Virus genome (UHGV): UHGV-0123951
Reading direction: 5' to 3' (one strand)
Origin: a virus
Length of the DNA: 36,881 bases
Part shown: piece after piece, positions 4,108 through 30,841 of the stretch
Layout of the letters: the number at the start of each line of letters is the position of its first letter
Position numbering within the stretch: position 1 is the stretch's first letter
Notes under the pieces: model-generated
The model's database searches: none
Told to the model about the DNA's origin: nothing
What the model saw: the letters and a program-made list of their open reading frames with translations, nothing else
Made by a program: the position numbers and the translations under genes

Positions 4108-4764
4108 TTATAAATCCATTATTACTTGTCTTACTAATCCTACCAATCGGCAGTTGCCATTGACTTCTAAAGTCCTGTAATTGGGGTTAAGAGGTACTAG
4201 GTATTTCAGCGGCCCATCGATGACGAACTTTTTAATAGTGGCTTCATCACTGCCCATAAGCTGTGCAATAACAATTTTACCATTAGCTTGACTGGCATCA
4301 CCAAAATCAGGTTCTACAACGACAATAGAACCTTCGGGAATACTTGGTGCACCTGTAGGGTTGGTCATCGAGTCGCCGCGAACAATGAGTGCAAATGCAC
4401 TTTCAGAAACGGCAGCCGAAGTATAGACCCAGTCATGAATGTCCCGCTCTGTGATCGCTACGCAATTGGCCGTCCATTCCCCGGCCTGTACCCATGTGAG
4501 AACGGGAACTGACCTAATTCCGAATCTTTGCTCCGGGTCCATAGTTGGTGGCTGCTGACTTCCATCATCCTTTCCATCCAGTAACCACTGCGGTGTCTTT
4601 TCTAATGCAGCCGCAAGCGCCTGGAGGTTTTCACCACCCGGTTTGTAGTCACCGGATTCCCAACCGGTGATAGTGACGCGATTAACCCCGACGAGCTTTG
4701 CCAGGACGGATTGCGTCATCTTTAGCTCTTTTCGTCTGCTTCGGATTCGATCATTCATTTTCAT
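4108..4764 (-). CDS. cI: cI-type prophage repressor, HTH plus S24 LexA-like autopeptidase domain
   Basis: HTH (MTQSVLAKLVGVNRVTITGWESG), candidate Ala-Gly cleavage site (VQAGEW), Ser/Lys dyad (GDSM ... KKF); start set at MKMND (4764) because the track extension to 4842 runs through the operators. Confidence 0.8.
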   Translation of the reverse strand: MKMNDRIRSRRKELKMTQSVLAKLVGVNRVTITGWESGDYKPGGENLQALAAALEKTPQWLLDGKDDGSQQPPTMDPEQRFGIRSVPVLTWVQAGEWTANCVAITERDIHDWVYTSAAVSESAFALIVRGDSMTNPTGAPSIPEGSIVVVEPDFGDASQANGKIVIAQLMGSDEATIKKFVIDGPLKYLVPLNPNYRTLEVNGNCRLVGLVRQVIMDL

Positions 4765-4826
4765 GTAGGTAATCCTACCATTATCTGATGTAGGAGTGCT
4801 TGACCAATCAATGTAAGATATCCTAC
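4765..4826. promoter_or_regulatory. OR operator cluster (GTAGGTAATCCTAC 4765-4778; GTAGGAGTGCTTGA 4790-4803; GTAAGATATCCTAC 4813-4826)
   Basis: Near-palindromes with consensus GTAGG-N4-CCTAC between divergent cI and cro. Confidence 0.55.
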
Positions 4827-4829
4827 TAT
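4800..4829 (+). promoter_or_regulatory. PR-like promoter (-35 TTGACC, 18-nt spacer, -10 TACTAT)
   Basis: Hexamers overlap operator 4813-4826; cro RBS GAGGG and ATG follow. Confidence 0.45.
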
Positions 4830-4863
4830 CAGTGCACTGCATTACTTAACTCCAGAGGGAAAA

Positions 4864-5982: not shown

Positions 5983-6849
5983 ATGAGCACTAAATTAACC
6001 GGCTACGTATGGGATGGTTGCGCGGCGTCGGGCATGAAGTTGTCTAGTGTCGCGATCATGGCCCGTCTCGCTGATTTCAGCAGCGATGAGGGTGTGTGCT
6101 GGCCGTCCATTGAAACTATTGCTCGCCAGCTTGGCGCAGGGCCGAGCACTATCAGAACGGCAATCGCAAAGCTTGAAAAAGATGGCTGGCTCACGCGTAC
6201 ACAGCGCCGTAATGGTAACCGTAATGCTTCGAACGTGTACCGCCTGAATGTGGCGAAACTTCAGGCTGCCGCATTTTCTCAACTGTCAGATTCTGACACG
6301 TCAAAATCTGACGCATCAAATTTTGACGCCTCAAAAACTGACCCGTCGAAATCTGGCAAAAAAGGCGGTTTTGACCCGTCAGAATCTGGCGGGGATCCGT
6401 CAGTAAAATCAAAACAAGATCCACAAGTAACTTCAAAACCCTCTTGTCCGGTTGCGGCGCAACCCGACCCTGAGGTTGTGATTACTGATCAGGCCAGACA
6501 GGTTTTGTCTTACCTGAACCAGACAACTGGTTCACGCTACCAGGTATGCAGCACGTCGCTGGAGAACATTCGCGCCCGTCTGCGGGAACAGTTCACTGTT
6601 GATGATCTGTGCCTTGTGGTGGATTACAAAAACGCTGATTGGCGTGATAGCGAGCAGGCTCAATACCTCCGCCCGGCAACTCTGTTTATTCCAAAAAACT
6701 TCCCCGGTTACCTGCAAAGCGCGACCAAATGGTCTGCCGCTGGGCGACCTGAACGCGTTAACGGTAAATGGGCGACTAACTCAGCCAGCCGCGCCAACTT
6801 CCAAAATGTTGACTATTCACTGCCAGAAAATTCGGGGTTCCGCTCATGA
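5983..6849 (+). CDS. replication initiator (lambda O-like), origin iterons embedded
   Basis: N-terminal HTH-like region; tandem repeats inside the ORF; GGGAGA RBS. Confidence 0.65.
   Translation: MSTKLTGYVWDGCAASGMKLSSVAIMARLADFSSDEGVCWPSIETIARQLGAGPSTIRTAIAKLEKDGWLTRTQRRNGNRNASNVYRLNVAKLQAAAFSQLSDSDTSKSDASNFDASKTDPSKSGKKGGFDPSESGGDPSVKSKQDPQVTSKPSCPVAAQPDPEVVITDQARQVLSYLNQTTGSRYQVCSTSLENIRARLREQFTVDDLCLVVDYKNADWRDSEQAQYLRPATLFIPKNFPGYLQSATKWSAAGRPERVNGKWATNSASRANFQNVDYSLPENSGFRS
6283..6405. repeat. tandem ~15-bp iterons (TCAAAATCTGACGCA-like): candidate phage origin
   Basis: At least 5 direct repeats with inverted-repeat cores (CGTCA...TGACG) encoding an S/D/K-rich linker. Confidence 0.55.
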
Positions 6850-8168
6850 TGCCAAATAAATATTGCCAGGCGCTGGCAGAACTGCGCAGTAAACCAGCTC
6901 ACGAATTGAAAGAAGTTGGAGATCAGTGGAGGACACCTGATCTGCTTTTCTGGGGGATCAACGCGTTATTTGGCCCATTAGTTCTGGACTTGTTTGCTGA
7001 CGACGACAACGCGAAATGCCCGGCATGGTACACCGCCGAAGATAACGCGCTGACCCAGGACTGGTCTGAACGTCTGGCAGAACTGGGTGGTGCAGGTTAT
7101 GGCAACCCACCGTATAGCCGTTCGCAGTACCACGAGAAACAGGCGATCACTGGTATGACGCACATCATGAAGTACGCAGCAGCCCAGCGCGAGAAGGGCG
7201 GTCGCTATGTATTCCTGATAAAAGCCGCGCCAAGTGAAACGTGGTGGCCGGAAGATGCCGATCACATTGTATTCATTCGCGGGCGCATTGGGTTCGATCT
7301 GCCAGTGTGGTTTGTACCTGCTGACGAAAAACAGAAGCCCACCAGCGCGTTTTTTGCCGGTGCCATAGCTGTATTCGATAACTCATGGCGTGGTGAGCGG
7401 TTCAGCTATATCAACCGTACTGAACTGGAGGCAAAAGGGCGGGCGTTTATGACTTTGGCGCAATTTGCTGCCAGCAAGTCTCAACCTGCAACTGCCATAC
7501 CATCTGTAGCTGACAAGCCAGAAGCAGAGTTGCCACTTACCCAGAAAGATATTTTTGATATCAGCGGTGTCGAGGCGTGGGCATGCGTTAGAGCTGCGTT
7601 CGGCGATAAAGAAGAATACACATTCAGTGAATCGAAGTTTGGGCATACCTGGGCGGCGGATTCTGTCGAAGCACCGGAATTCACTCAGGTATCACCATTA
7701 ACGATCGACAAAGCGAAGCTGCTTATTCGTGAGAGTATTTTGTTCGGTGTGGATGAGTGGCTGTTGTCGATTGAATTCGATGACGCTGCTGCGCGCCTGG
7801 ATATGTCGGAACGTATTCGTACTGTTGCCCTCGAAGCATCTGGTGAATATGGCATGAACAGTACTGATTTCATTGCAGCTATGGGAAGCCTGGATGTTTC
7901 CAGTTGGTCCAATATTCGCCAGATCCGCATGCACATCCGTGAGAAAGCTAAACCAGTATCGGATCCGCTTCCCGAGTCCCGTATCTGGCCGCTGGAGGTT
8001 GGAATTGTATTCGACCAGGTAGACGGCGCTGACATGCTGGATGAATCACAGCAGAACAAGCTGAAAGCCAACATCAATCAACTCTGGCTGGAACGAACGG
8101 CCACCAGCGAAATCATCACAATTGCGCGTGGTCTTGTCGGCAGCATGCAGGGGGTAACCCATGCGTGA
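6846..8168 (+). CDS. phage Dam-family N6-adenine DNA methyltransferase with ~250-aa C-terminal extension (440 aa)
   Basis: N-terminal domain with NPPY motif (GYGNPPYS); long extension of unknown function. Confidence 0.75.
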   Translation: MMPNKYCQALAELRSKPAHELKEVGDQWRTPDLLFWGINALFGPLVLDLFADDDNAKCPAWYTAEDNALTQDWSERLAELGGAGYGNPPYSRSQYHEKQAITGMTHIMKYAAAQREKGGRYVFLIKAAPSETWWPEDADHIVFIRGRIGFDLPVWFVPADEKQKPTSAFFAGAIAVFDNSWRGERFSYINRTELEAKGRAFMTLAQFAASKSQPATAIPSVADKPEAELPLTQKDIFDISGVEAWACVRAAFGDKEEYTFSESKFGHTWAADSVEAPEFTQVSPLTIDKAKLLIRESILFGVDEWLLSIEFDDAAARLDMSERIRTVALEASGEYGMNSTDFIAAMGSLDVSSWSNIRQIRMHIREKAKPVSDPLPESRIWPLEVGIVFDQVDGADMLDESQQNKLKANINQLWLERTATSEIITIARGLVGSMQGVTHA

Positions 8169-9978
8169 GATTATTGTTGATAACTTTGCTGGTGGCGGTG
8201 GCGCATCAACGGGTATTGAACTGGCGATCGGGCGCAGCGTGGATATTGCGATCAACCACGACGAAAACGCCATTGCGATGCACAAGACGAACCACCCGGA
8301 CACACTGCATTATTGTGAATCCGTTTTTGACGTGGATCCGGTAGCTGCCACCGGCGGTAATCCTGTCGGCCTGGCATGGTTTAGCCCGGACTGCCGACAC
8401 TTCTCGAAGGCAAAAGGCGCAAAGCCAGTGAAAAAAGAGATACGCGGTCTGGCCTGGATTGTTCTGCGTTGGGCACTGGCAAAGCGACCGCGCGTGATGA
8501 TGCTGGAGAACGTGGAAGAGTTCAAAACGTGGGGACCGCTGCTGGCCGATGAAATGCGTCCGGATCCTGCCCGCACTGGCGAAACATTCAATGCATTTGT
8601 CGGCATGCTGTCCACTGGCATTCCTGCTGATCACCCGGCACTGGCTGAGGTTTGTGAGTTTCTGTCTATCGAAAGAGGTAGCGAGCAGGCGCAAAAGCTG
8701 GTGGATGGGCTCGGATATGATGTTGATTATCGCGAACTACGCGCGTGTGATTACGGCGCGCCGACGATCCGCAAACGCTTCTTCATGGTTATGCGTTGCG
8801 ATGGTTGCCCAATCCAGTGGCCTGCTGTTAGCCATGGGGATCCTAAGTCGCTGGAGGTGCAAAGTGGCAGGCTGATGCCATGGCGTACCGCTGCGGAATG
8901 TATCGACTGGAATGTTCCGGCCCTGTCCATCTTCGACCGCAAAAAACCGCTGGCGGAGAACACTCTGAAGCGGATCGCGCGCGGCATACAGCGCTTTGTT
9001 ATCGAAAGTGCGTCGCCGTTTATCGTGAAGTGCAATCACACCAGCACCAAAACGAGTTACGACTGTTTCCGCGGTCAGAAGCTGGACGAGCCTTTGCAAA
9101 CTATTACTAAAACCCACGGTTACGCGTTAGCTGTTCCACATCTGACAAAATTCCGCACTGGCGCAACCGGGCAGCCCGTTACCGAACCTGTCCCGACGGT
9201 AACCGCTGGCACATCAAAACGTCCGGGTGGGAATGGGCATGCTCTCGGGATTGTTGAGGCTGCACTAACACCATTTCTGGCGGGTAATGGTGGTAGTGAA
9301 TACCAGGCTAAACCGCGCCCGCTGGATAAACCTGCTCATACCATTCTGAAGCAATCCCGCGCCTGTCTTGTTGCGCCAGTGATAGCCCGCCAGTTTGGGG
9401 CCAGCGTCGGCCACCGGGCAGACGAACCGAGCGCCACAATTACAGCTGGTGGTGGCGGTAAATCACAATTGGTGGGCGCGTTCCTGGCGAAACACTACGG
9501 CGGTAACTATACGGGGCCGGGTGTCAGTATGGATGAACCCGCGCATTCAGTGACCACTGTCGACCATCATGCGGTAGTTGCCTCTCATCTGGTGAAACTG
9601 CGTGGAACATGCCGCGACGGGCAACGCCTTGATGTGCCAATGCCAACAATCACCGCTGGTGGCCAACACGTGGGTGAGGTACGCACATTTCTCGAGACGT
9701 ATTGCGGGGAAAGTGACGATGAATGGCTGGTAACGATCGATGGGGTTAAATACCAGATCGTTGATATCGGAATGCGCATGTTGCAGCCGCATGAACTCTA
9801 CAAAGCGCAGGGCTTCCCGGATGGTTACGTTATTGATCAGGACTACCGTGGAAATCTCTATGCAAAAGATAAGCAGGTAGCCCGCTGCGGTAATGCGGTA
9901 CCACCACCATTCGCCAGGGCGCTGGTGGAGGCAAATCTTCCGGAACTGTGTGCAGTGCAACAGCAGGAGGTGGCATGA
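8161..9978 (+). CDS. DNA cytosine-5 methyltransferase (605 aa)
   Basis: Motif I DNFAGGGG, Cys motif SPDCRHFS, ENV motif MMLENVEEF, C-terminal GNAVPPP; overlaps the Dam gene by 8 nt. Confidence 0.75.
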   Translation: MREIIVDNFAGGGGASTGIELAIGRSVDIAINHDENAIAMHKTNHPDTLHYCESVFDVDPVAATGGNPVGLAWFSPDCRHFSKAKGAKPVKKEIRGLAWIVLRWALAKRPRVMMLENVEEFKTWGPLLADEMRPDPARTGETFNAFVGMLSTGIPADHPALAEVCEFLSIERGSEQAQKLVDGLGYDVDYRELRACDYGAPTIRKRFFMVMRCDGCPIQWPAVSHGDPKSLEVQSGRLMPWRTAAECIDWNVPALSIFDRKKPLAENTLKRIARGIQRFVIESASPFIVKCNHTSTKTSYDCFRGQKLDEPLQTITKTHGYALAVPHLTKFRTGATGQPVTEPVPTVTAGTSKRPGGNGHALGIVEAALTPFLAGNGGSEYQAKPRPLDKPAHTILKQSRACLVAPVIARQFGASVGHRADEPSATITAGGGGKSQLVGAFLAKHYGGNYTGPGVSMDEPAHSVTTVDHHAVVASHLVKLRGTCRDGQRLDVPMPTITAGGQHVGEVRTFLETYCGESDDEWLVTIDGVKYQIVDIGMRMLQPHELYKAQGFPDGYVIDQDYRGNLYAKDKQVARCGNAVPPPFARALVEANLPELCAVQQQEVA

Positions 9979-11058: not shown

Positions 11059-12050
11059 GAGCTCTGCTTACCCCCGAGATCGCCCATCGTATGGGGATTG
11101 TGTTGTTCCGTCCTGGTGCGGAACTGATGCACCTCTTCATGCGTGGTCGCGTTCTGCTCGAGCCTGAACCAGAAGAAATGGCGTCATTCAGTACCGGGGC
11201 TGTTCCGGCAGCCATTCAGCCGCTGACTGATGATCCGGTAATGCGTCAGGTCTTCGAGAATGAGAGGGTTATTCAGCGTGCCGGTGGGATTTCTTCCCTT
11301 GAGCAATGGTTGAGTAATCGGTTTGAATGCCAGTGGCCACATTCATCGTGGCACGACAAGAACTTCACAACAATGCGGCACCCACCAGGAAGTATTCGCC
11401 TGTGCTGGCATTGCGATCACACTTTGTCGGGGCAGCATACCGAACAGCTTGCAGGTATAGCGGCCGGAAACCTGGTATCCTGGATTCTGGAAGTCATTCG
11501 GCGTGATTCTGGTTTTCCCGAGTCGCATATCCTGACGCTTCCGGAACTGTGCTGGTGGATGGTCAGAAACGACCTGGCTGATATTATTCCGGAAAGCGTT
11601 GCGCACAAAGGGCTGCGCCTTCCGGATGAGAAGATCCGTTCTGTCATGAGGGAAAGCGACATAGTGCCTTCCTCGTCAGCAACCAGACTCGTTCAGGAGA
11701 AGGCGAAGAAGATCCTCACGCTCTCTGTTGATCCAGAGTCGCCAGAGTCTTTCATGCTCAGGCCAAAGCGACGCCGCTGGATAAATGAGACGTACACCCG
11801 CTGGGTTAAAACACAACCCTGTGAGTGTTGCCGACGGCCAGCAGATGATCCGCACCATATCGTAGGGCACGGTATGGGTGGTACAGCAACAAAAGCCCAT
11901 GACCTCTTCGTGATCCCTCTGTGCAGAGAGTGCCACGATGAGTTACACGCCGATGTACCGGCATTCGAGCAAAAGCATGGTACGCAGCTTGAGCTGCTAC
12001 TGCGTTTTATGGATCGGGCGCTGGCGATCGGCGTAATTGCGACAGCTTAA
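11055..12050 (+). CDS. DUF968-like phage protein with Cys/His cluster (YdfU-like)
   Basis: C-terminal CECCRRPADDPHHIV ... CRECHDELH motif; GTGA overlap with upstream stop. Confidence 0.55.
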   Translation: MRALLTPEIAHRMGIVLFRPGAELMHLFMRGRVLLEPEPEEMASFSTGAVPAAIQPLTDDPVMRQVFENERVIQRAGGISSLEQWLSNRFECQWPHSSWHDKNFTTMRHPPGSIRLCWHCDHTLSGQHTEQLAGIAAGNLVSWILEVIRRDSGFPESHILTLPELCWWMVRNDLADIIPESVAHKGLRLPDEKIRSVMRESDIVPSSSATRLVQEKAKKILTLSVDPESPESFMLRPKRRRWINETYTRWVKTQPCECCRRPADDPHHIVGHGMGGTATKAHDLFVIPLCRECHDELHADVPAFEQKHGTQLELLLRFMDRALAIGVIATA

Positions 12051-12066
12051 GAAGTATGGAGACCGT

Positions 12067-12897
12067 ATGAATCTGGACAATGTTTTAAAGTTTTTTGCGC
12101 CTAAAGGCATGCACATCTCAGATACCAGCAGAGCGACAGCAAGTGAGCAACTTACTGTGACTGATGTAATGGCGGCACTGGGGATGACTCAGGCTGATGC
12201 GGGCATCGGGCTGGCAATGTTTCTGGGTAAAGCTTGTATCAGCAGCCAGGACAGGGAGGCGTCAATTGCCTGGCTAACGGAGTACGCGAAAGAGCATGCT
12301 CCCATGGCTATTCGTAAAGCATCAGGGAAAAAGTTTCCCCTCTGCATGCGTATCCTTGCCCGGTTTGCCTATAACGATTATTCCTCATCAGCAGCTGATT
12401 GTGTGGCATGCCCAAAATGTAGTGGTAAAGGGTTGCTTACAACCACTAAAACCGTGACTAAAAGCCATTACACAATGCGATTGCCACAATGGGCAAAAGA
12501 CCTGAGACAGTCACCATCTGACTTTGAGGTTAAGCGCGATGTAACTGACACTGATCATACGTTATGTTCCCGCTGCCATGGCACCGGAAAGTTAAGTAAG
12601 CGATGCCAGTGCGGCGGCACAGGTAAGACTATTGACCGTAAAGCGACAGAACTGCAGGGCGTACCGGTTTACAAAGAATGTAAGCGCTGTGAAGGTCGGG
12701 GATACAGCAGGCCAAAATCATCGGTTGCCTATCGCGGTGTTTTTTCCGAGTTGCCCAGTCTGCCAGACCGGACGTGGCGTTATAGCTGGAAACCATTCTA
12801 TGAAATCTTGGTGACCAAATGTTTCCAGGAGGAGAGTTATTCAAGTTCTCAACTGAACCGGGTGACTAAAAGTGAAGATGTGATAAATATCGCGTAA
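12067..12897 (+). CDS. Q-like late-gene antitermination protein
   Basis: Multiple CxxC zinc-finger-like motifs; sits directly upstream of the late promoter/terminator and lysis cassette; start at MNLDNV with GGAGAC RBS. Confidence 0.65.
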   Translation: MNLDNVLKFFAPKGMHISDTSRATASEQLTVTDVMAALGMTQADAGIGLAMFLGKACISSQDREASIAWLTEYAKEHAPMAIRKASGKKFPLCMRILARFAYNDYSSSAADCVACPKCSGKGLLTTTKTVTKSHYTMRLPQWAKDLRQSPSDFEVKRDVTDTDHTLCSRCHGTGKLSKRCQCGGTGKTIDRKATELQGVPVYKECKRCEGRGYSRPKSSVAYRGVFSELPSLPDRTWRYSWKPFYEILVTKCFQEESYSSSQLNRVTKSEDVINIA

Positions 12898-15481: not shown

Positions 15482-16939
15482 ATGCAGGTCACTATTGATG
15501 GTGTCCCGTATTTGCCTGCCTGTGCTTCAGCGTCACGGATTGGCATTGCGATTACCACCCACAACCGGGCGGACGTTTTAAAGCGTGCTGTTGAGCAGCA
15601 CCAGAAGCATCTGCCAGCCGGTGCGCTGCTGGTGGTTGTCGATGATGGTTCAAAACCTGCAGCGATAGCACCCGACGGCGTGCAACTGCTTCGCCATGAA
15701 ACATCACTCGGCATTGTTGCCTCGAAGAACGCCAGCCTGTCAGCCCTGATGGATGTCGGGTGCGAGCATCTGTTTTTATGGGATGATGATGCCTGGCCCA
15801 TCGCCGATAACTGGCATCTTCCCTACATCGAATCACCAGAGCCGCACCTGGCTTACCAGTTTCTGGATCTGGCTGGTCGCAATAAGCTGAACGACATGGC
15901 GGAGCTGTACCGTGATGATAAGCATGTTGCTTACACTGGTCAGCGCGGGGTGATGCTTTACTACCACCGCAGCGCCATCAAGAAGGTTGGCGGATTCGAT
16001 CCGGTATACGGTCGCGGCATGTACGAGCATCCCGATCTGGCGCTTCGGATTCACAACGCTGGTTTAACGTCGTGGGCGTTCGCTGATGTAGTTGGCTCTG
16101 AAAAGCTGATTCACTCAATGGACGAGTACGAAGAGGGCGTGCGCTCAATACCACGGCCTGACCGAGAGGCACTGGTAAAAAGAAACGTTGGCATCTTCAA
16201 CGCTCGACGCGACAGCGGTTATACAGGCTTTGCCTCGTACAGCAGAAATCCAAATCTAGTGATTACGACGCTGCTCACAAGCCAGCCAGACCCACAGCGA
16301 GGCAGGAAGATGAAACCCGACCCGCAGGCTCTTCAGGCTTGGGCAGATTCAATATCCGGCGCGCTGCCGATTGTCCTGGCTGACGAATTAAAAGAGTCGC
16401 CAACTGGCGCCGGTCTGTTTGAAGTCCCGCCGTTGGGCATGAGCCCATACTTTGCTCGCTGGCTTCACATCTATCAGTATCTTCGTGCCCACCCTGAATA
16501 CCATCTTGTCTGGTGTACTGACGGGACAGACGTTGAAATGCTGCGTGAGCCTTGGGCAGAGATGGCGCCGGGTAAAATTTACGTTGGCTCCGAGCACAAA
16601 ACCTACTTTGACGAATGGATGAAGGACAATCACCACGGCAAAGCTTATAGCGAGTTCTTCGAACTGCACCGGGATGAGCAACTGCTTAATGCTGGCCTGA
16701 TTGGTGGCTACCGTGAAGATGTAATGGAGTTCGCCCACCGGATCATCCGTCAGCATTACCTTATTGAAAGCCACCGCTTCTGGAAGATGGAAGCAGCTCC
16801 CGCCACGCTGGTGGACATGGGCGCTTTCGGGATGGCTGCAAAGTCATTCGGTAATCGAATCGTTACCGGCCCTCTGGTGCATACCATCTTTAAAACGGAT
16901 GGCTTCGGAAAGGAGACCGCATGGTGGAAACACAAGTGA
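15482..16939 (+). CDS. family 2 glycosyltransferase with ~250-aa C-terminal domain of unknown function (485 aa)
   Basis: GT2 signature (IAITTHNR ... LLVVVDDGS ... WDDDAW); no obvious membrane spans; GGAGAA RBS. Confidence 0.7.
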   Translation: MQVTIDGVPYLPACASASRIGIAITTHNRADVLKRAVEQHQKHLPAGALLVVVDDGSKPAAIAPDGVQLLRHETSLGIVASKNASLSALMDVGCEHLFLWDDDAWPIADNWHLPYIESPEPHLAYQFLDLAGRNKLNDMAELYRDDKHVAYTGQRGVMLYYHRSAIKKVGGFDPVYGRGMYEHPDLALRIHNAGLTSWAFADVVGSEKLIHSMDEYEEGVRSIPRPDREALVKRNVGIFNARRDSGYTGFASYSRNPNLVITTLLTSQPDPQRGRKMKPDPQALQAWADSISGALPIVLADELKESPTGAGLFEVPPLGMSPYFARWLHIYQYLRAHPEYHLVWCTDGTDVEMLREPWAEMAPGKIYVGSEHKTYFDEWMKDNHHGKAYSEFFELHRDEQLLNAGLIGGYREDVMEFAHRIIRQHYLIESHRFWKMEAAPATLVDMGAFGMAAKSFGNRIVTGPLVHTIFKTDGFGKETAWWKHK

Positions 16940-17511
16940 AGTATGTTGTGATTGGTCACCATTCCCGCTATGCCTCAGCTGCATTGCTGGCTGGCGAACT
17001 TGGCGCACACCTGCTTATCGATGAAGGGAATCACGGTGCGAACTGGAATCACCGGCGCGCTATCGAATGGGCTGCTGAGCAACCTTGCCGGGTAGTGGTG
17101 CTGGAAGACGACGCGCTGCCTGTACGTGGATTCAGAGACAAGATTACGGGCTGGCTGGCTCGTTTCCCTGGCGACATGCTTAGTTTTTATCTGGGCACTG
17201 GGCGGCCACCGCAATACCAAATGCAGATAGCTGAACGCCTGATTAATGCGGATAAGGTGAGGTCTGACTTCATTATGCTGCAACGCCTGATACATGGCGT
17301 GTGCTACAGCATACCGCCTCAAAGCATCAGCCGTGTGCTGTCTCAATGGGACTGCAGTAAGCCTGCCGATTATGCCGTGGGCGATGCTTATGGTGGCGTT
17401 GTCGTCTATCCCTGCTGGTCGCTGGTGGACCATGCAGACGGCGAACCGGTTGAGCGTCACCCTGACTCAGCTCCACGAACAGAACGCCGCCGGGCGTGGA
17501 GGTTAGCCTGA
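16921..17511 (+). CDS. hypothetical protein, possibly GT-A-like (196 aa)
   Basis: VVVLEDDALP segment resembles a DxD-type motif; AGGAGA RBS; overlaps the glycosyltransferase stop. Confidence 0.45.
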   Translation: MVETQVKYVVIGHHSRYASAALLAGELGAHLLIDEGNHGANWNHRRAIEWAAEQPCRVVVLEDDALPVRGFRDKITGWLARFPGDMLSFYLGTGRPPQYQMQIAERLINADKVRSDFIMLQRLIHGVCYSIPPQSISRVLSQWDCSKPADYAVGDAYGGVVVYPCWSLVDHADGEPVERHPDSAPRTERRRAWRLA

Positions 17512-25150: not shown

Positions 25151-25512
25151 TTGCTCCAGTTTTTTCCGTCTGTTCGACAGACCCGAAAGTAAAAGAGCTA
25201 CTTGGTGCCAACCCGGTCAGGCTTTATCCGTTTGGCATGCATGATGATGACCTTGTGTATCCCTACGCGGTCTGGCAGAACGTGGGCGGTGAACCTGAAA
25301 ATTACCTGAGTCAGAACCCTGACATCGACCGTTATTCCATTCAGGTGGATGTGTATGGCGACACCGATGAAGATGCTCTTGCTGTGGCGAGAGCATTGCG
25401 CGATGTCATTCAGCGTAAAGCTTACATTACCCGCTGGGATGCACAGGGCAGAGACTCTGCAACCCTCAAATACCGATATTCCTTTGACGTTGACTGGCTG
25501 GTCAACCGATAG
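25147..25512 (+). CDS. tail completion / terminator-like protein
   Basis: 121-aa ORF coupled to upstream stop, directly before the major tail gene. Confidence 0.55.
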
Positions 25513-25532
25513 CTTAAACCACTCACATCACA

Positions 25533-25554
25533 CCGGCTATAAGCCGGTTTTTTT
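25533..25554 (+). terminator. intrinsic terminator (attenuator) upstream of the major tail gene
   Basis: CCGGCT-ata-AGCCGG hairpin then T7. Confidence 0.5.
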
Positions 25555-25570
25555 ATATCCGGAGATGACT

Positions 25571-26062
25571 ATGTCAGTAGTGACTCAAGGCACTCAACTT
25601 TTTGTGCTCGCGAATGGTGTCGTGAGCGAAATCGAATGTATTACGGCATTTTCACCAGGCGGCAGCCCTGCAGATCAGATTGATGATACGTGCCTCAGTG
25701 AACGCAACACCCGAAAATATAAAAAGGGTCTGCGTACACCGGGGCAGGCGACGGCCACGCTTAACGCTGATCCACAGAATGCCAGCCATCTGATGCTCAG
25801 TAATATGGCTGAATCAAATGATCAGAGTGATGTGACATTTGCGATCGGATGGTCCGATGGCGAGTCTAAACCAACAACGGGGAGTTCCCCTGATGCTGTT
25901 GATGGACTGATTCTACCTTCAGATCGTACCTGGTACGTGTTCAAAGGTTATGTTTCCGACTTCCCGTTTGACTTCCAGGGTAATACCGTCGTGCAGACGT
26001 CTGCTACCATCCAGCGCTCTGGCCAGGGGGCATGGATTCCTAAAGAACAGCCAGGCAGTTAA
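25571..26062 (+). CDS. major tail (tube) protein
   Basis: Start moved to MSVVTQ (GGAG 6 nt upstream); the track start at 25349 overlaps the preceding gene. Confidence 0.65.
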
Positions 26063-26114: not shown

Positions 26115-26495
26115 ATGAAACTGACTCTTGATACGCTGAAAAAAACAGGTGCTTTTACTGGTCGTCCTGTTGAGAAAGAAATTAAATGGAAAGGTGCTGA
26201 CGGGGAAGAACATATTGCCATAACTTATGTTCGCCCTCTGGGTTATCACACTGCCACGTCTGATGTTCTCGCCGGTCTTGGCAAGATTGATGGCGTTGCT
26301 GGTCGTATTGCAGCATCAATCTGTGATGAAGACGGGCATCAGGTGTTTACCGTTGCTGATGTGACCGGCGAGGCTGATCCGGAACGTGGCGCACTGGATG
26401 GCAATCTTACAGTGGCTTTGCTGGTGGCTATTCAGGAAGTTAACGATCTGGGAAAGACGGACTCAGCGCAGAAGACGAAATCTGGTGCGAACTAG
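26115..26495 (+). CDS. tail assembly chaperone (lambda G-like)
   Basis: Small acidic protein before the tape measure gene; contains the slippery heptamer near its 3' end. Confidence 0.65.
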   Translation: MKLTLDTLKKTGAFTGRPVEKEIKWKGADGEEHIAITYVRPLGYHTATSDVLAGLGKIDGVAGRIAASICDEDGHQVFTVADVTGEADPERGALDGNLTVALLVAIQEVNDLGKTDSAQKTKSGAN

Positions 26496-26782
26496 TCCTT
26501 AACGGGATTGGTGGACGTACCATTTCAGAAGCGCAGGAACGCCTTAGCTTTCTTGAGTTTCAGCAGTGGGTTCAGTATCGTCAAAAATACGGAAACCTGA
26601 ACCCTATGATGCGGACGGAATGGGGAGCAGCGTTGATTTCTTCTGTGCTGGCTAATGTTAATCGCGGTTCAAACACACCGGCATTCAGCATTACTGATTT
26701 CGCCCCTCACATAGCAGCGGTAGAGCGCGTCGCCGCTAACGAACCAATCAGCCTGCAGGAAGCGATGAGGACGTGGAATTGA
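26115..26782 (+). CDS. tail assembly chaperone -1 frameshift fusion product (G-T-like)
   Basis: G GGA AAG heptamer at 26450-26456 in the zero-frame register; the -1 frame is open from there to TGA 26780-26782 (110 codons, translated by hand). Confidence 0.55.
26450..26456 (+). promoter_or_regulatory. programmed -1 ribosomal frameshift slippery site GGGAAAG
   Basis: Identical to the lambda G/GT slippery heptamer, in the required register. Confidence 0.6.
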
Positions 26783-26844
26783 AAAGTAGAATTTATTAGA
26801 AACGCTTTCCTTGCTACCCTATCTAAAAACAAGGAGATCAAGGA

Positions 26845-27564
26845 ATGGCTTTAATTAAATGCAAAGAGTGTGGAGAACAGGTATCTGATAAGGCCGCATC
26901 ATGTCCAAAGTGCGGAGCTCCCATAGCAAAAAAAAACAAAGGCCCATCGGGATGTATGATGGTGTTTTTTATTTTTGTAGGGGTTCTTATCCTTCTTTTG
27001 TTTATTGGCAAAGTAAGCAATAAAAAAGAAGCACCTAGCCAAACAGTGGGTAGCACTCAGGTAAGCACTGATAAGTTGAAAAATGATGTCGTAAAAGAAG
27101 TAGAGGTAAAAAAAGAACCAGTTACAGTTATTAACTGGCATAACCAACCCACGAAAGATAGCGTTACTGGTGAGGTTGGGGAGATTTTTTATAATACATC
27201 GAAAAACCATGTTAATTTCCCATTCCCATACAACGTTGATGGTGGTTCTGTACTCAACTTGGTTTTCCGCAAAAGAAAACAAGGTACTGATGCCTATGTC
27301 GTGATATCTAAAGGTCAGATTGTATGTGGTTACTCAGATTGCTCAATAAGAACGAAGGGCGATAACGGAAAGGTAAAAATCTGGACTGCAAGTAGTGAGG
27401 CGTCTGGAAGATCAGATATGATTTTTCTTGATAACCCACAGTCTTTCGAAAAATATATCAAGAGCAATAAAAAAATCACTATTGGAGTGACATTTTATCA
27501 ATCTGGCGAACAGGGGTTCGATTTTGATGTTTCAGATTATCCAGAGCAAGCAAAGAAAAAATAA
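26845..27564 (+). CDS. zinc-ribbon, single-pass membrane protein (239 aa), AT-rich moron
   Basis: N-terminal CxxC-x12-CxxC, hydrophobic helix (MMVFFIFVGVLILLLFIG), ~180-aa Lys-rich C-terminal domain; AGGAGA RBS. Confidence 0.6.
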   Translation: MALIKCKECGEQVSDKAASCPKCGAPIAKKNKGPSGCMMVFFIFVGVLILLLFIGKVSNKKEAPSQTVGSTQVSTDKLKNDVVKEVEVKKEPVTVINWHNQPTKDSVTGEVGEIFYNTSKNHVNFPFPYNVDGGSVLNLVFRKRKQGTDAYVVISKGQIVCGYSDCSIRTKGDNGKVKIWTASSEASGRSDMIFLDNPQSFEKYIKSNKKITIGVTFYQSGEQGFDFDVSDYPEQAKKK

Positions 27565-27599
27565 AAGTAATATTTACACTATTTAATAAGCATTAAAAT

Positions 27600-27624
27600 G
27601 CCTCGCTTTGCGGGGCTTTTTTTT
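27600..27624 (+). terminator. intrinsic terminator after the zinc-ribbon moron
   Basis: GCCTCGC-tttg-CGGGGC hairpin then T8. Confidence 0.6.
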
Positions 27625-27638
27625 ACCTGGAGGACAGC

Positions 27639-30113
27639 GTGGCAAGTAAATCATTAGGTACATTAACGATAGACTTAATTGCCAAAGTTGGCGGCTTTGT
27701 TGGCGGCCTAAGCCAGGCTGAAAGGGCATCGCAGAAATGGCGAAAACAGGTTCAAGAGGATGCAAAATCTGTAGCTGTTGCATTCACAGGGGCAGCAACT
27801 GCAGCAAGCGCCGCTGCTATTGGCGTAGGTGTGGCTGGATACAACCTGTTAAAAAACACCTCCAGGCAAATTACTGAGTCTGACCGTTGGGCTAAGTCGC
27901 TCAACATGTCTACTCAATCATTACTTGCTTGGCAGTATGCTGCAGAAAAAGCAGGTGTTTCAGGCGATCAAATGGCTGATATTTTTAAAGATATCGGAGA
28001 TAAAATTGGTGACTCGGTACTGAATAAATCAGGTGAGGCAGTAGATGCATTGGATGCACTCGGTTTATCAGCTAAAAAATTATCGAGTGAATCGCCGGAT
28101 AAGCAACTTTTAGCCATAAGTGATGCGCTAAGCAAGATTAAAACAAACGCTGAAAAGACTACTATTCTTGAAAGCTTGGGTAACGATCTCTCTAAGTTGC
28201 TTCCTTTGCTTGATCAGGGCGGTGATAAATTACAAAAATATATTAAGGCTGCGAAAGAATTTGGCGTAGCACCAGATGATACCGATATAGAAAGTCTCGT
28301 AAAAGTTAATTCAATCTTTGAGGATATGGAAAACCAAGTTAAAGGGGTTAAGATTGAATTATCAGCTGGATTAGCAAAGGTTGACCTTTCTAACCTGCAG
28401 AAATCAATTAGCGACATGGGTGATGTATTTAAAGACCATGAAGTTATCAAAGGTATCACCAACCTTGTTAGTGGCGTGGTCGACCTCGCTACCTGGCTTG
28501 TTAAGGTTGGAGCGGAAGCAGGAAAACTCATCGATCTTTACAAAGGGGGACAGGCAGTAGGGGAGAATGCATCTATAGAGGAAATTGATCGTCGCATAAG
28601 AAACCTTGATGCAGATTTAAATGACGAAGGTTTTCTTGCAGATTTCAACAGATTAGGAATGGATGTGGAAAGGAAACGGGCTGAACGATCAGAGCTTGAA
28701 CGCCGCCGAGCAATCCTTAAAGCAGGAAATAACCTACCTCTATATCCAGCAACCATAGGTAATTATTCTTCATCTAAAACAGATTATGGTCTTGACGCAG
28801 GAGAATCAAACGGGAAATTAAAAACTGATACTTCAGCAAAAAAAATTGAATCAGCTTTTAAATCAATGGAGACAAGTTACCTCCGTCAGATTGCTCTCAT
28901 CGACACCACTGGAAAGAAAAGCGCAGAAGTTACTGAACAGCAAAAACTACAATTTGATATCGCTGACGGAAAGCTAAATGGACTTAATGAAACACAGAAG
29001 CAACGCCTTGAACAACTGGCTACAGAGGTTGATCGCCTAAATTCCGTAAAAAAGGCAAACGAGGAAAATCTAAAACTGGCTGAATACGTATCGAACCTTC
29101 AGCGTGAAAATGCGAATTCAGCGGCTTCTCTTGATGCAGATGTCATTGGCGCAGGACTCGGTGATAAAGCCCGCGAAAGGATGCGTGAGCAACTCAGCAT
29201 TGAACGCGAATTTCTGGAGAAGCGAGAGGATTTGCAACGGCGGTATCAGAGCGGAGATATTCGTAGCCAAGAGGATTATGACCGTTATAACCAGGAACTG
29301 GACAAAGCGCTTGCTGAGCGACTCGATAAATACCGTTCTCATTATGACCAACTGGATGAGTTACAGGGAAACTGGCTGGCAGGGGCTCAGAATGGTCTGG
29401 CTAACTGGGTAGATACTTCCAGCGATTATTACACTCAGGTATCAGATTTAGTCGGTAACACCCTTGATGGCCTGGTGGATAACATGGCTGATGCCCTCAG
29501 TGGTAATAAAGCTGACTGGGCAAGTTGGGCGAACAGTGTGTTGAATGAGCTGCAGAAAGTCTTGCTCAGGGCAATTATGGTCAACACGCTTAAATCTGCT
29601 GGTGATAGCGGTTGGTTTGGTTCACTTGGTGGGATGTTTGGTAGTTCAGTGGCTGGCGCAGCATCCGCTGGCGGTGCAACACCGTCCGGAGCTTATACAG
29701 GTGCGGCATCTCAATTGAAATTCGCCAAGGGTGGTGTAATGGATTCGCCTGATCTTAGTCGTTTCCGTAATGGCGTCGTGAACAGTCCGACGATGTTTGC
29801 TTTCGCCAAAGGTGCGGGGCTCATGGGAGAAGCTGGTCCTGAAGCTATTATGCCCCTTACGCGTACTGCTGACGGTAACCTCGGTGTTCGTATGGTGGAT
29901 GACACGGTTTCTTCTGTTGGCGGTGGTGGTGCTCAGCTCCAGCAAACTATTCAGCAGCATTTCTCTATTTCCGGTAACGGAGATGCCGCACTGAAGCAGG
30001 CTATGCAGGAAGCTGCACGACAGGGTGCTAATGATGGTGCAAAACAGGCGCGTAAGGATTTGCTTCAGGATTTCTCTAATAGAGGACAGGCAAGGCGATT
30101 ACTTGGCGTGTAA
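27639..30113 (+). CDS. tail tape measure protein (824 aa), GTG start
   Basis: Long coiled-coil-rich ORF after the G/GT chaperone; GGAGGA RBS before GTG. Confidence 0.85.
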   Translation: MASKSLGTLTIDLIAKVGGFVGGLSQAERASQKWRKQVQEDAKSVAVAFTGAATAASAAAIGVGVAGYNLLKNTSRQITESDRWAKSLNMSTQSLLAWQYAAEKAGVSGDQMADIFKDIGDKIGDSVLNKSGEAVDALDALGLSAKKLSSESPDKQLLAISDALSKIKTNAEKTTILESLGNDLSKLLPLLDQGGDKLQKYIKAAKEFGVAPDDTDIESLVKVNSIFEDMENQVKGVKIELSAGLAKVDLSNLQKSISDMGDVFKDHEVIKGITNLVSGVVDLATWLVKVGAEAGKLIDLYKGGQAVGENASIEEIDRRIRNLDADLNDEGFLADFNRLGMDVERKRAERSELERRRAILKAGNNLPLYPATIGNYSSSKTDYGLDAGESNGKLKTDTSAKKIESAFKSMETSYLRQIALIDTTGKKSAEVTEQQKLQFDIADGKLNGLNETQKQRLEQLATEVDRLNSVKKANEENLKLAEYVSNLQRENANSAASLDADVIGAGLGDKARERMREQLSIEREFLEKREDLQRRYQSGDIRSQEDYDRYNQELDKALAERLDKYRSHYDQLDELQGNWLAGAQNGLANWVDTSSDYYTQVSDLVGNTLDGLVDNMADALSGNKADWASWANSVLNELQKVLLRAIMVNTLKSAGDSGWFGSLGGMFGSSVAGAASAGGATPSGAYTGAASQLKFAKGGVMDSPDLSRFRNGVVNSPTMFAFAKGAGLMGEAGPEAIMPLTRTADGNLGVRMVDDTVSSVGGGGAQLQQTIQQHFSISGNGDAALKQAMQEAARQGANDGAKQARKDLLQDFSNRGQARRLLGV

Positions 30114-30154
30114 GCATTATTAATATTCATTAAGCCGAAAGGCGGGAGACTGTT

Positions 30155-30484
30155 ATGACTTTAGAACAACGAATTGAGTCACTTGAATTTAAAGTAGGGT
30201 TTCCGAAAGAAAATGGAGTAAGAATTTCTTTCGGAGAAAATTTGGCCATGTCATCTACGCAGCGCATTGGTAGTAACGTGTCGGTGAAAATTGGCAAAGC
30301 AACCGTAGCTACTATCCAGTACAGCGAAGACTTAACGCCAGAACTTACCCTGGAAGGGTACAATCAGCGGGCGAAAGGGCATGCTCAAAATGTTGTCACG
30401 AAGATTATTGAAGCGGCCACAAATCAGGCCGCGAATGGTTTTTATACCTTAAAATTAGGAATTAAGACTGATGCAGTCCTTTGA
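30155..30484 (+). CDS. hypothetical protein (109 aa), AT-rich
   Basis: Track ORF with GGGAGA RBS; 3' end overlaps a convergent minus-strand ORF. Confidence 0.45.
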   Translation: MTLEQRIESLEFKVGFPKENGVRISFGENLAMSSTQRIGSNVSVKIGKATVATIQYSEDLTPELTLEGYNQRAKGHAQNVVTKIIEAATNQAANGFYTLKLGIKTDAVL

Positions 30485-30677
30485 GATTGCCAACCCATTG
30501 CTGAATCGATGGGGAATCAATCTGTGATAACTCCTTAATGATTTGCTGGCGACCCTCATTGTCTAATTTCAAAGCTACGCTAAGAAGGATCATTTTAATA
30601 TCATTTAATTCATCAGCGACTTCCTTCAGGCTTTCTTTTTTTGAATTAAATTGAACTTTTGCACTTACTTCGTCCAT
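30462..30677 (-). CDS. hypothetical protein (71 aa), AT-rich, antisense to the late operon
   Basis: Track ORF with AGGAAG RBS on the minus strand. Confidence 0.4.
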   Translation of the reverse strand: MDEVSAKVQFNSKKESLKEVADELNDIKMILLSVALKLDNEGRQQIIKELSQIDSPSIQQWVGNLKGLHQS

Positions 30678-30841
30678 ATAACTTCCTTATCCAGAGGTAA
30701 TCAGCCATCCCTCCTAATCAGAAAACGCCAGTGTCCCACCACTGACGGGCTGAGTAACAACCATAACCAGGTATGTAAATCAGTAACATCCTGACAAATG
30801 ATCAGTAGCGCCAACGTGCGCAGAATAATGCAGGAGAATCT

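What the first reader, a model, noticed from the sequence alone, without database searches (positions are those of the whole stretch)
26845..27564. Zinc-ribbon membrane-protein moron inserted between tail chaperone G/GT and the tape measure gene
The gene is markedly AT-richer than the flanking structural genes, has its own terminator, and sits in a slot that is normally gene-free. Its architecture (N-terminal CxxC-x12-CxxC, one TM helix, ~180-aa probably extracytoplasmic domain) would fit an envelope-located accessory function such as superinfection exclusion or receptor masking. That is a hypothesis only.
Basis: partly seen in the sequence, partly recalled or inferred. Interest (0 to 1): 0.58.

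Follow-up and report, generated by a model that had tools for sequence, protein, structure and literature searches.

The report
Envelope-protein moron before tape measure gene
A Citrobacter prophage carries an optional, self-contained gene for a membrane-anchored periplasmic protein in the same tail-operon slot where phage HK97 keeps its injection-blocking gene gp15, so it is a good but untested candidate for a new family of superinfection-exclusion proteins.

Summary
The ORF at 26845-27564 (+, 239 aa) is real. It lies between the GT frameshift product (slippery GGGAAAG at 26450, T frame ends 26782) and the tape measure gene (27639). It has a strong RBS and a hairpin plus T8 terminator. It encodes a cytoplasmic CxxC-x10-CxxC zinc ribbon, one TM helix, a low-complexity linker and a confidently modelled beta-sandwich domain. 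That domain elsewhere sits behind signal peptides and lipoboxes, so it is periplasmic.

The gene is accessory. HK022, whose tape measure N-terminus is 84% identical, has an empty slot. Among 45 species-representative loci with this tail chaperone, the slot is empty in 18 and occupied in 27. The cargo is almost always an AT-rich envelope protein, including HK97 gp15 (a proven exclusion protein), T4-Imm-family proteins and lipoproteins. In Pseudomonas D3-like phages the homologue sits beside cI.

It is unrelated in sequence to gp15, and no Pfam, PADLOC or NCBIfam model covers its periplasmic domain. The nearest solved fold is IalB, whose mechanism is unknown. The best reading is a prophage-expressed inner-membrane protein that blocks genome entry by superinfecting siphophages. 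This rests on position and topology and has not been shown.

The parts
26115..26495 (+). Tail assembly chaperone 'G' (upstream boundary of the slot)
   Evidence: Pfam Phage_TAC_13, 112 bits; phrog_1749. The 126-aa start follows the gene calls in near-identical loci.
26450..26456 (+). Slippery heptamer G GGA AAG for the -1 frameshift that gives GT
   Evidence: Found in the G/T overlap in the correct phase. That phage lambda uses the same heptamer is from my own knowledge.
26444..26782 (+). T frame (-1 relative to G). Its stop at 26780-26782 is the true upstream edge of the slot.
   Evidence: Open frame 26444-26782. Pfam Phage_tail_T 28.3 bits; phrog_5297.
26812..26820 (+). Candidate extended -10 promoter element TGCTACCCT (TGnTAnnnT)
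   Evidence: TGnTA is invariant in six lineages, and the full TGnTAnnnT is present in five. It lies about 25-32 nt before the ATG whatever gene lies upstream. No -35 match was found, and the generic sigma-70 scan found nothing on this strand. This is inference only.
26831..26836 (+). Ribosome-binding site AAGGAG, 8 nt before the ATG
   Evidence: Read directly from the sequence.
26845..27564 (+). The moron ORF, 239 aa: zinc ribbon, TM helix, linker, periplasmic beta-sandwich
   Evidence: dN/dS about 0.10.
26845..26925 (+). Cytoplasmic zinc ribbon, aa 1-27 (C6, C9, C20, C23). This is the most conserved part of the family.
   Evidence: Pfam Zn_Ribbon_1, 29.4 bits against a cut-off of 25. 17 of 27 columns are >=90% conserved across 56 relatives.
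26950..27006 (+). Single transmembrane helix, aa 36-54
   Evidence: Kyte-Doolittle 19-residue mean 3.05. Helix 36-54 in the AF2 model.
27007..27132 (+). Low-complexity, poorly conserved linker, aa 55-96
   Evidence: pLDDT 47-57. Mean majority fraction 0.28.
27133..27549 (+). Periplasmic beta-sandwich domain, aa 97-235. W98, P128, Y129, G157, G221 and F227 are invariant; C161 and C166 are near-invariant.
27595..27624 (+). Intrinsic terminator: hairpin GCCTCGC-TTT-GCGGGGC plus T8, ending 14 nt before the tape measure start codon
   Evidence: Free energy -12.6 kcal/mol, z -4.4. A hairpin plus T-run is visible in the same place after every phage-borne copy, with different stem sequences. HK97 gp15 has an equivalent annotated terminator.
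27639..30113 (+). Tail tape measure gene (downstream boundary). Its first 1.4 kb or so shares the low GC3 of the moron.
   Evidence: phrog_2854 E 4e-197; Tape_meas_lam_C. GC3 is 0.315 for codons 1-470 and 0.428 for the rest. It is 68% identical to the HK022 tape measure.

Best explanation
This is a moron, an optional self-contained gene cassette lodged in the late tail operon of a lambdoid, HK022/HK97-like Citrobacter prophage.

It encodes a bitopic inner-membrane protein. A 27-residue zinc ribbon sits in the cytoplasm. One helix crosses the membrane. A flexible linker holds a roughly 140-residue beta-sandwich domain in the periplasm.

The most likely role is superinfection exclusion. The protein would be made from the repressed prophage, from its own weak promoter, with transcripts stopped by its own terminator. 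Its periplasmic domain would interfere with the step in which an incoming siphophage tail tip and tape measure protein form the DNA conduit through the periplasm and inner membrane. It would do this either by binding the phage protein or by occupying a host factor the phage needs.

During lytic growth the phage's Q antiterminator would let late transcription read through the terminator into the tape measure gene.

Shown here: the gene, its anatomy, its accessory status, its periplasmic topology and the nature of the slot. Inferred: expression in the lysogen, the promoter, and the exclusion function and its target.
For: Accessory and mobile:
- The gene is absent from HK022, whose tape measure N-terminus is 84% identical, closer than in the Enterobacter prophages that do carry it.
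- The slot is empty in 18 of 45 surveyed loci, and the zinc-ribbon family is present in only 3.
- A decayed 75-aa remnant exists in Atlantibacter.
- The gene diverges faster than its neighbours: 71% identity against 79-94%; dN 0.17 against 0.04-0.12. It is still under purifying selection (dN/dS about 0.10).

Cassette features:
- GC3 is 0.33.
- A hairpin plus T-run follows every phage-borne copy, with different stem sequences, and folding supports five of the six checked.
- A TGnTA element is kept upstream whatever the upstream neighbour.
- A Q antiterminator is present at 12037-12897.

Topology:
- The N-terminal cysteine zinc ribbon has no preceding signal sequence.
- The C-terminal domain occurs behind signal peptides, lipoboxes and multi-TM anchors in relatives.
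- A conserved Cys pair is present in the domain.

Slot logic:
- HK97 gene 15, the founding moron, occupies the same slot with the same terminator arrangement.
- Other cargo in this slot is almost entirely envelope proteins. These include Imm_superinfect-family proteins (68 bits against a cut-off of 27.9), BamE-like and other lipoproteins, and 2-TM proteins.

Independent placement: in Pseudomonas D3-like phages with the same tail-module family (TAC 68%), the homologue (36%) is a stand-alone unit with its own terminator just downstream of cI. I take this to be a classic site for lysogen-expressed genes.
Against: - No experiment and no expression data are available.
- No canonical sigma-70 promoter was found. 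The proposed extended -10 has a poor hexamer (TACCCT).
- The protein matches no known exclusion or defence family: PADLOC has nothing significant, there is no similarity to gp15, and there are no Imm or Ltp hits.
- Its only solved structural neighbour, IalB, has no known mechanism and is linked to host-cell invasion, not phage.
- Most family members at <=35% identity are chromosomal genes outside prophages, so the ancestral function is not phage exclusion.
- A passive periplasmic block does not explain why the cytoplasmic zinc ribbon is the most conserved part.
- Divergence of the protein does not track that of the tape measure N-terminus. L016 has the tape measure N-terminus at 86% but the moron at 50%.
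Confidence: 0.5

Rival explanations
1. It is a lysogenic-conversion gene that benefits the host for reasons unrelated to phage, comparable to lambda Lom or Bor. Examples would be envelope stress tolerance, adhesion or invasion, or serum resistance. The periplasmic IalB-like domain would act on a host envelope process.
Against: In seven sampled enterobacterial lineages at 42-99% identity, the gene always sits immediately upstream of the tape measure gene. The slot's other cargo includes proven or named injection blockers. The fold similarity to IalB is remote (10% identity, no Pfam hit) and carries no mechanism.
Confidence: 0.2
2. It is a late-expressed function serving the phage's own lytic cycle. 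One possibility is protection of progeny from futile adsorption or injection into lysing cells and debris, as with T5 Llp. Another is help with tape measure handling or lysis timing. It would be transcribed by Q-antiterminated read-through and not from the prophage.
For: The gene is on the late strand inside the late operon, with a Q antiterminator in the phage. Promoter evidence is weak. It is always adjacent to the tape measure gene in enterobacterial prophages. It shares an AT-rich block with the tape measure 5' region.
Against: It is dispensable in close relatives with the same tail module. A conserved terminator between it and the tape measure gene is pointless for a purely late gene. In D3-like phages the homologue is in the immunity region next to cI, on the cI strand and away from the late genes.
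Confidence: 0.15
3. It is a transmembrane sensor and not a plug. The periplasmic domain would detect an incoming tail or tape measure protein, or envelope damage. The highly conserved cytoplasmic zinc ribbon would pass the signal to a cytoplasmic partner, giving an abortive-infection or regulatory outcome.
For: The zinc ribbon is the most conserved segment across phyla (17 of 27 columns >=90%), which suggests a conserved cytoplasmic interaction. The architecture, with a small cytoplasmic domain, one TM helix and a periplasmic domain, is that of many one-component transmembrane signalling proteins. That comparison is from general knowledge.
Against: No partner gene is conserved next to it in phage or chromosomal loci. 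A 27-residue ribbon has no effector domain. There is no match to known defence systems.
Confidence: 0.1
4. It is non-functional hitch-hiking DNA, or an ORF by chance in AT-rich sequence.
For: A truncated remnant exists in one lineage.
Against: There are 282 homologues with invariant motifs. dN/dS is about 0.10. The fold prediction is confident. A strong RBS is present.
Confidence: 0.02

Closest known systems
HK97 gp15 (the founding 'moron'; superinfection-exclusion protein, YebO-like)
   Same: It occupies the identical genomic slot between the GT chaperone frame and the tape measure gene. It is AT-rich (GC 0.33). An intrinsic terminator lies immediately before the tape measure start. It is a single-pass inner-membrane protein, and it is absent from the close relative HK022. 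[quoted passage not shown]
   Different: There is no sequence similarity (BLASTP finds no alignment at E<=100). gp15 is 62 aa, with no zinc ribbon and no folded periplasmic domain. The protein here is 239 aa with both. Function is shown for gp15 only.
T4 Imm-type superinfection immunity proteins (Pfam PF14373 Imm_superinfect)
   Same: They are found in this same GT-to-tape-measure slot in Pseudomonas prophages of the same tail-chaperone family (L066, L069 and relatives; 65-68 bits). They are small inner-membrane proteins, AT-richer than their flanks.
   Different: The present protein has no PF14373 match. Imm-type proteins have two TM segments and no periplasmic domain.
Ltp of Streptococcus phage TP-J34 (exclusion lipoprotein that targets the tape measure protein)
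   Same: It is a surface- or periplasm-exposed, membrane-tethered folded domain encoded by a temperate siphophage. It blocks DNA injection, and escape mutations lie in the tape measure protein (as summarised in PMC10883804). This is the closest mechanistic analogue for a tethered extracytoplasmic domain.
   Different: Ltp is anchored by a lipid, not by a zinc ribbon plus TM helix. It has a different fold and is encoded in the lysogeny module of a Gram-positive phage. No sequence or convincing structural match was found here.
[quoted passage not shown]
   Different: Identity is 10%. There is no Pfam Invas_IalB hit at E<=0.1. IalB has no zinc ribbon, and its molecular function is unknown.
Zn_Ribbon_1 (PF13240) N-terminal ribbon-TM-ectodomain proteins
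   Same: The N-terminal 27 residues are a bona fide member (29.4 bits against a cut-off of 25). The ribbon-TM-extracytoplasmic domain layout is shared by many relatives.
   Different: The family defines only the ribbon and carries no known function. The C-terminal domain here is not in Pfam.

Membership tests
Moron (sense of Juhala/Hendrix, as summarised in PMC3594210) | Present in one phage but absent from otherwise closely related phages at the same position | tested here: met
   HK022, mEp235, HK140 and mEpX2 have a 20-nt gap at this position, although their tape measure is 68% identical (84% in aa 1-250). The slot is empty in 18 of 45 surveyed loci.
Moron (sense of Juhala/Hendrix, as summarised in PMC3594210) | Nucleotide composition differs from surrounding genes | tested here: met
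   GC is 0.38 and GC3 0.33, against GC about 0.50 upstream. Caveat: the adjoining 1.4 kb of the tape measure gene is equally AT-rich.
Moron (sense of Juhala/Hendrix, as summarised in PMC3594210) | Own transcription terminator | tested here: met
   Predicted hairpin plus T8, -12.6 kcal/mol, z -4.4. A hairpin plus T-run follows all phage-borne copies. Termination activity itself was not tested.
Moron (sense of Juhala/Hendrix, as summarised in PMC3594210) | Own promoter | tested here: inconclusive
   The generic sigma-70 scan finds none on the + strand. TGnTA is invariant in six lineages and the full extended -10 pattern TGnTAnnnT is kept in five, about 25-32 nt before the ATG.
Moron (sense of Juhala/Hendrix, as summarised in PMC3594210) | Expressed from the repressed prophage | not testable with these tools
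   This needs RNA-seq or 5'-RACE of a lysogen. Indirect support: the homologue lies beside cI in D3-like phages.
HK97 gp15 / YebO family | Sequence homology to gp15/YebO | tested here: not met
   BLASTP finds no alignment at E<=100. No YebO Pfam hit.
HK97 gp15 / YebO family | Location between the tail assembly chaperone and tape measure genes, with a terminator before the tape measure | tested here: met
HK97 gp15 / YebO family | Blocks DNA injection of superinfecting phage without blocking adsorption | not testable with these tools
   Requires plating, adsorption and injection assays.
Pfam Zn_Ribbon_1 (PF13240) | Score above the gathering threshold, with four Cys ligands | tested here: met
   29.4 bits against a cut-off of 25. 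C6, C9, C20 and C23 are invariant in 56 relatives.
IalB (PF06776 / COG5342) | Sequence match to the family model | tested here: not met
   No hit at E<=0.1 in Pfam. None among 56 domain relatives.
IalB (PF06776 / COG5342) | Same fold | tested here: inconclusive
Imm_superinfect (PF14373) | Sequence match to the family model | tested here: not met
   No hit. The family does occupy the same slot in other prophages.
Known anti-phage defence systems (PADLOC 2.0) | Match to any component model | tested here: not met
   The only hit is a 0.035 E-value match of the TM and linker region to ZorB/MotB.

The most novel reading that the evidence does not exclude
The cargo in this slot and the first 400-470 codons or so of the tape measure gene may travel together as one exchange unit, an 'exclusion plus entry-specificity' module. 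In this reading the zinc-ribbon protein is not a passive plug. It is a transmembrane device whose periplasmic IalB-like domain recognises the incoming tape measure or tail-tip complex, and whose very highly conserved cytoplasmic zinc ribbon engages a conserved cytoplasmic partner. This would define a new, widespread family of injection-sensing or injection-blocking proteins. The periplasmic domain has 2,350 sequence clusters, and the chromosomal members would be the ancestral stock.
Probability: 0.1. Interest if true: 0.8.

Novelty: new variant of a known kind. Interest (0 to 1): 0.5.

Why it matters
HK97 gp15 has long been the single worked example of a moron in the tail operon that blocks genome injection, and how such proteins stop a siphophage at the inner membrane is still unknown.

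This finding adds a second, unrelated and much larger protein in the same slot. It has a folded periplasmic domain that can be purified, modelled and used for binding studies. It belongs to a large uncharacterised domain family with no Pfam entry.

The slot survey shows that the GT-to-tape-measure junction is a general hot spot for envelope-protein cargo across Enterobacterales, Pseudomonas, Marinobacter and Halomonas prophages. That gives a ready-made list of candidate entry blockers to test against defined tape measure types.

If exclusion is confirmed, the natural pairs would make the tape measure and inner membrane entry step directly testable. These pairs are phages with and without the gene that have 68-86% identical tape measures, and the same protein at 50-99% identity.

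Tried and rejected
- The primary gp15 paper (PMC3430355) is not held. I relied on the authors' review PMC3594210 and the summary in PMC10883804.
- The weak Pfam FtsH_ext hit (21.7 bits, below the 25.5 cut-off) covers the TM and linker and was rejected as compositional.
- The PADLOC ZorB/MotB hit (E 0.035) and the PDB MotB and reverse gyrase hits (E>0.01) were rejected as TM or zinc-ribbon noise.
- NCBIfam had nothing above its cut-offs.
- I looked for a conserved partner gene next to the chromosomal relatives and next to the Pseudomonas phage copies. There is none: no BLAST match among neighbours.
- I considered that the gene and the tape measure N-terminus co-diverge, as expected for a strictly cognate pair. 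This is not supported. L016 has the tape measure N-terminus at 86% but the moron at 50%.
- I considered a canonical sigma-70 promoter. None was found.
- A literature search for a zinc-ribbon transmembrane exclusion protein returned no papers.
- The L022 terminator fold used badly chosen coordinates that cut half the stem. The hairpin CCACCTATAATCAGGTGG plus T8 is visible.

Full report
OBSERVATION

It runs 26845-27564 on the + strand and encodes 239 aa. An AAGGAG ribosome-binding site lies 8 nt before the ATG.

The setting is a textbook siphophage tail operon:
- a tail tube gene (Phage_TTP_11, 217 bits);
- chaperone G (Phage_TAC_13, 112 bits);
- the T frame (Phage_tail_T);
- then the ORF;
- then an 824-aa tape measure protein (Tape_meas_lam_C; phrog_2854 E 4e-197).

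The G/GT frameshift is intact. The slippery heptamer G GGA AAG lies at 26450 in the correct phase, and the -1 frame is open from 26444 to 26782. The slot therefore runs from 26783 to 27638.

A hairpin at 27600-27616 followed by T8 ends 14 nt before the tape measure GTG. It folds at -12.6 kcal/mol with z -4.4, and no shuffle of 200 folds as well.

The rest of the window is a complete lambdoid prophage. It has:
- a cI-like repressor (4108-4842, minus strand), a CII-like gene and replication genes;
- two DNA methylases and an antirepressor;
- a Q antiterminator (12037-12897, Pfam Antiterm 153 bits);
- holin, endolysin and an Rz-like gene;
- terminase and an HK97-type head.

The closest genome match is Citrobacter portucalensis A60, with 99% identity over the chaperone gene used as anchor and the same 856-nt slot. 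The 99%-identical protein cluster is named from Citrobacter braakii.

- The cysteine spacing is CxxC-x10-CxxC (C6, C9, C20, C23).
- The gene is AT-richer than the upstream structural genes (GC3 0.33, against 0.41-0.60). It is not AT-richer than the first 470 codons of the tape measure gene, whose GC3 is 0.315.
- The slot is not 'normally gene-free' in this tail family (see the slot survey below).

THE PROTEIN

Pfam places residues 5-27 in Zn_Ribbon_1 (29.4 bits, cut-off 25). One hydrophobic segment spans residues 36-54.

An AlphaFold2 model built on 56 relatives has mean pLDDT 83.9. It shows a small ribbon, one helix (36-54), a disordered linker (55-96, pLDDT about 50) and a beta-sandwich with one helix (97-235, pLDDT >90).

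Across 56 relatives at about 32% mean identity, several residues are conserved. The four ribbon cysteines and W98, S119, P128, Y129, G157, F194, G221 and F227 are invariant. C161 and C166 are nearly so.

The ribbon is the most conserved segment: 17 of 27 columns are >=90% conserved, against 17 of 134 in the C-terminal domain.

A search of 1.84 billion cluster representatives with the C-terminal domain alone found 2,350 relatives at E<=1e-3. The domain is always at the C-terminus. In a sample of 55 of these, the N-terminal part varied. It was a zinc ribbon plus TM, a cleavable signal peptide (proteins of about 155-170 aa), a lipobox, or several TM helices.

A domain that is repeatedly placed behind export signals works outside the cytoplasm. 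The topology here is therefore N-in, C-out. No Pfam model covers the domain.

BFVD shows the same fold in uncharacterised proteins of lytic phages such as RB16 and KP15. PADLOC and NCBIfam have nothing significant.

IS IT ACCESSORY?

It is not met.
- HK022, mEp235, HK140 and mEpX2 have a tape measure 68% identical over 751 residues. Identity is 84% in the first 250 residues.
- HK022 nevertheless has only a 20-nt gap between GT and the tape measure gene.
- The Enterobacter prophages that do carry the gene (71% identity) have a more distant tape measure N-terminus (79%).

The gene evolves faster than its neighbours but is still constrained:
- Identity is 71% against 79-94% in the Enterobacter locus, and about 50% against 60-86% elsewhere.
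- dN is 0.17 against 0.04-0.12.
- dN/dS is about 0.10. dS is saturated, so this figure is approximate.

THE SLOT

I anchored on the chaperone G protein and retrieved 48 species-representative loci from Enterobacterales, Pseudomonas, Marinobacter and Halomonas.

Of the 45 loci with both boundaries present, the gap from the T stop to the tape measure start is:
- <=110 nt in 18;
- >280 nt in 27.

The zinc-ribbon family occupies 3 of these:
- Citrobacter;
- Entomohabitans;
- a 75-aa ribbon-plus-TM remnant in Atlantibacter that still has its own terminator.

The other cargo is almost entirely predicted envelope protein, and it is always lower in GC than its flanks. It includes:
- a roughly 155-aa 2-TM family, also present in Klebsiella phage ST16-OXA48phi5.3;
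- many lipoproteins, some BamE-like;
- signal-peptide proteins;
- in Pseudomonas prophages, proteins of Pfam Imm_superinfect, the T4 Imm family, at 65-68 bits against a cut-off of 27.9.

HK97 gene 15 occupies this same slot with an annotated terminator before the tape measure gene. That terminator folds at -13.0 kcal/mol. Gene 15 is the element for which the word moron was coined. [quoted passage not shown]

The present protein has no sequence similarity to gp15.

WHERE ELSE THE GENE SITS

In all seven sampled enterobacterial lineages at 42-99% identity, the gene lies immediately upstream of the tape measure gene.
- These phages have different head proteases and two different distal-tail modules.
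- Sometimes extra cargo lies before it: a 118-aa lipoprotein, or KilA-N and ORF6N genes.

Every phage-borne copy is followed by a hairpin plus T-run, and the stems differ in sequence. Folding supports five of the six checked.

Upstream, TGnTA is invariant in six lineages. The full extended -10 pattern TGnTAnnnT is kept in five, about 25-32 nt before the ATG, whatever lies further upstream. This is suggestive of a promoter but is not proof. The generic sigma-70 scan found none.

Pseudomonas D3-like phages (D14O, U9, P7869, FBPa47, Marin) have the same tail-module family. In D14O the chaperone is 68% identical and the tail tube 53%, and the GT-to-tape-measure gap is empty. There the homologue (36%) is a separate unit with its own terminator a few genes downstream of cI on the cI strand.

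Relatives at <=35% in Methylobacillus and in uncultured proteobacteria are ordinary chromosomal genes with no conserved neighbours. The parallel with gp15, which its authors derive from chromosomal yebO (PMC3594210), is close.

MECHANISM

The best-supported reading has five steps:
- In the lysogen, a weak cassette promoter makes a short transcript that stops at the hairpin.
- The product inserts with its ribbon in the cytoplasm and its beta-sandwich tethered in the periplasm by a linker of about 40 residues.
- There it interferes with formation of the tape measure and tail-tip conduit by a superinfecting siphophage.
- It would do so either by binding the phage protein or by occupying a host factor.
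- In lytic growth, Q-modified polymerase reads through the hairpin into the tape measure gene.

The anatomy, topology, accessory status and slot logic are shown. Expression, the promoter, and the exclusion function and its target are inferred.

I put the moron and envelope-protein part at about 0.85, and the exclusion function at about 0.5.

The rivals are:
- a host-benefit conversion gene unrelated to phage (0.2);
- a late-expressed function for the phage's own cycle (0.15);
- a transmembrane sensor that uses the conserved ribbon (0.1).

UNEXPLAINED

First, where the slot is occupied by any cargo type, the first 1.2-1.5 kb of the tape measure gene is AT-richer than both the upstream structural genes and its own 3' part. 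There is often a sharp step. Empty-slot loci show no such step.
- The median GC difference from the upstream genes is -0.076 in occupied loci and -0.023 in empty ones (one-sided Mann-Whitney p 1.9e-4).
- Against the tape measure 3' part, the medians are -0.105 and -0.030 (p 0.011).
- The comparison is 26 loci against 18 and is not corrected for relatedness.

This suggests that the cargo and the tape measure 5' region are exchanged together. That could reflect functional coupling or merely recombination end-points.

Second, a passive periplasmic block does not explain the extreme conservation of the cytoplasmic ribbon.

VERDICT

The element is a new variant of a known kind: a moron in the HK97 gp15 slot that carries an unrelated, uncharacterised protein family. 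Interest is moderate. It is not surprising in concept, but it is a concrete, testable candidate for a new exclusion family, and it brings a useful map of a cargo hot spot.

Noticed in passing
window 30114-30841 (ORFs 30155-30484 + and 30462-30677 -): There is a second variable cargo slot between the tape measure stop and the distal tail gene. It holds two small AT-rich ORFs (phrog_11851 and phrog_6806, both of unknown function; GC about 0.40-0.42) with terminator-like hairpins on both strands. The slot is empty in L011 and L012. It holds a DUF6602 gene on the minus strand in L013 and L014, and different small ORFs in L004, L007 and L010.
   Followed up: partly
window 27639-29050, and loci L034-L080: The first 1.2-1.5 kb of the tape measure gene is AT-rich, often with a sharp step, only in loci whose GT-to-tape-measure slot is occupied. 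This holds for several unrelated cargo types. One-sided Mann-Whitney p is 1.9e-4 for 26 loci against 18, not corrected for relatedness.
   Followed up: partly
L066:5769-6116, L069:5746-6075 (also L070, L073, L076): Pseudomonas prophages with the same tail chaperone family carry Imm_superinfect (PF14373) plus SHOCT proteins in the same slot.
   Followed up: yes
L053:4541-4927, L074:5696-5998 (also L063): BamE-domain lipoproteins occupy the same slot in Serratia, Marinobacter and Rouxiella prophages.
   Followed up: partly
L051:5732-5959 (Atlantibacter subterraneus): A 75-aa version of the gene holds only the zinc ribbon, the TM helix and a short tail. It still has its own hairpin terminator before the tape measure gene. 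It is either a decayed copy or a minimal form similar in size to gp15.
   Followed up: partly
window 15482-17511: Two overlapping genes lie between the Rz-like gene and the small terminase. They match PHROG 'moron' glycosyltransferase and glucosyltransferase families (phrog_1579 E 8e-226; phrog_854 E 1e-70). They are probably surface-polysaccharide-modifying conversion genes.
   Followed up: no
window 6846-9978: There are two adjacent DNA methyltransferases. One is a 440-aa protein whose Dam domain covers only residues 19-199. The other is a 605-aa C5-cytosine methylase with matches at both ends of the protein.
   Followed up: no
window 26845-26925 and alignment A1: The N-terminal motif MALIKCKECG..VS.KA..CPKCGA is almost invariant from Enterobacterales to Syntrophaceae and Omnitrophica relatives. 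It is far more conserved than the periplasmic domain.
   Followed up: partly
window 25349-26062: The mechanical ORF for the tail tube gene (237 aa) starts inside the upstream gene. Gene calls in near-identical loci give 163 aa, which corresponds to a start at 25571.
   Followed up: no
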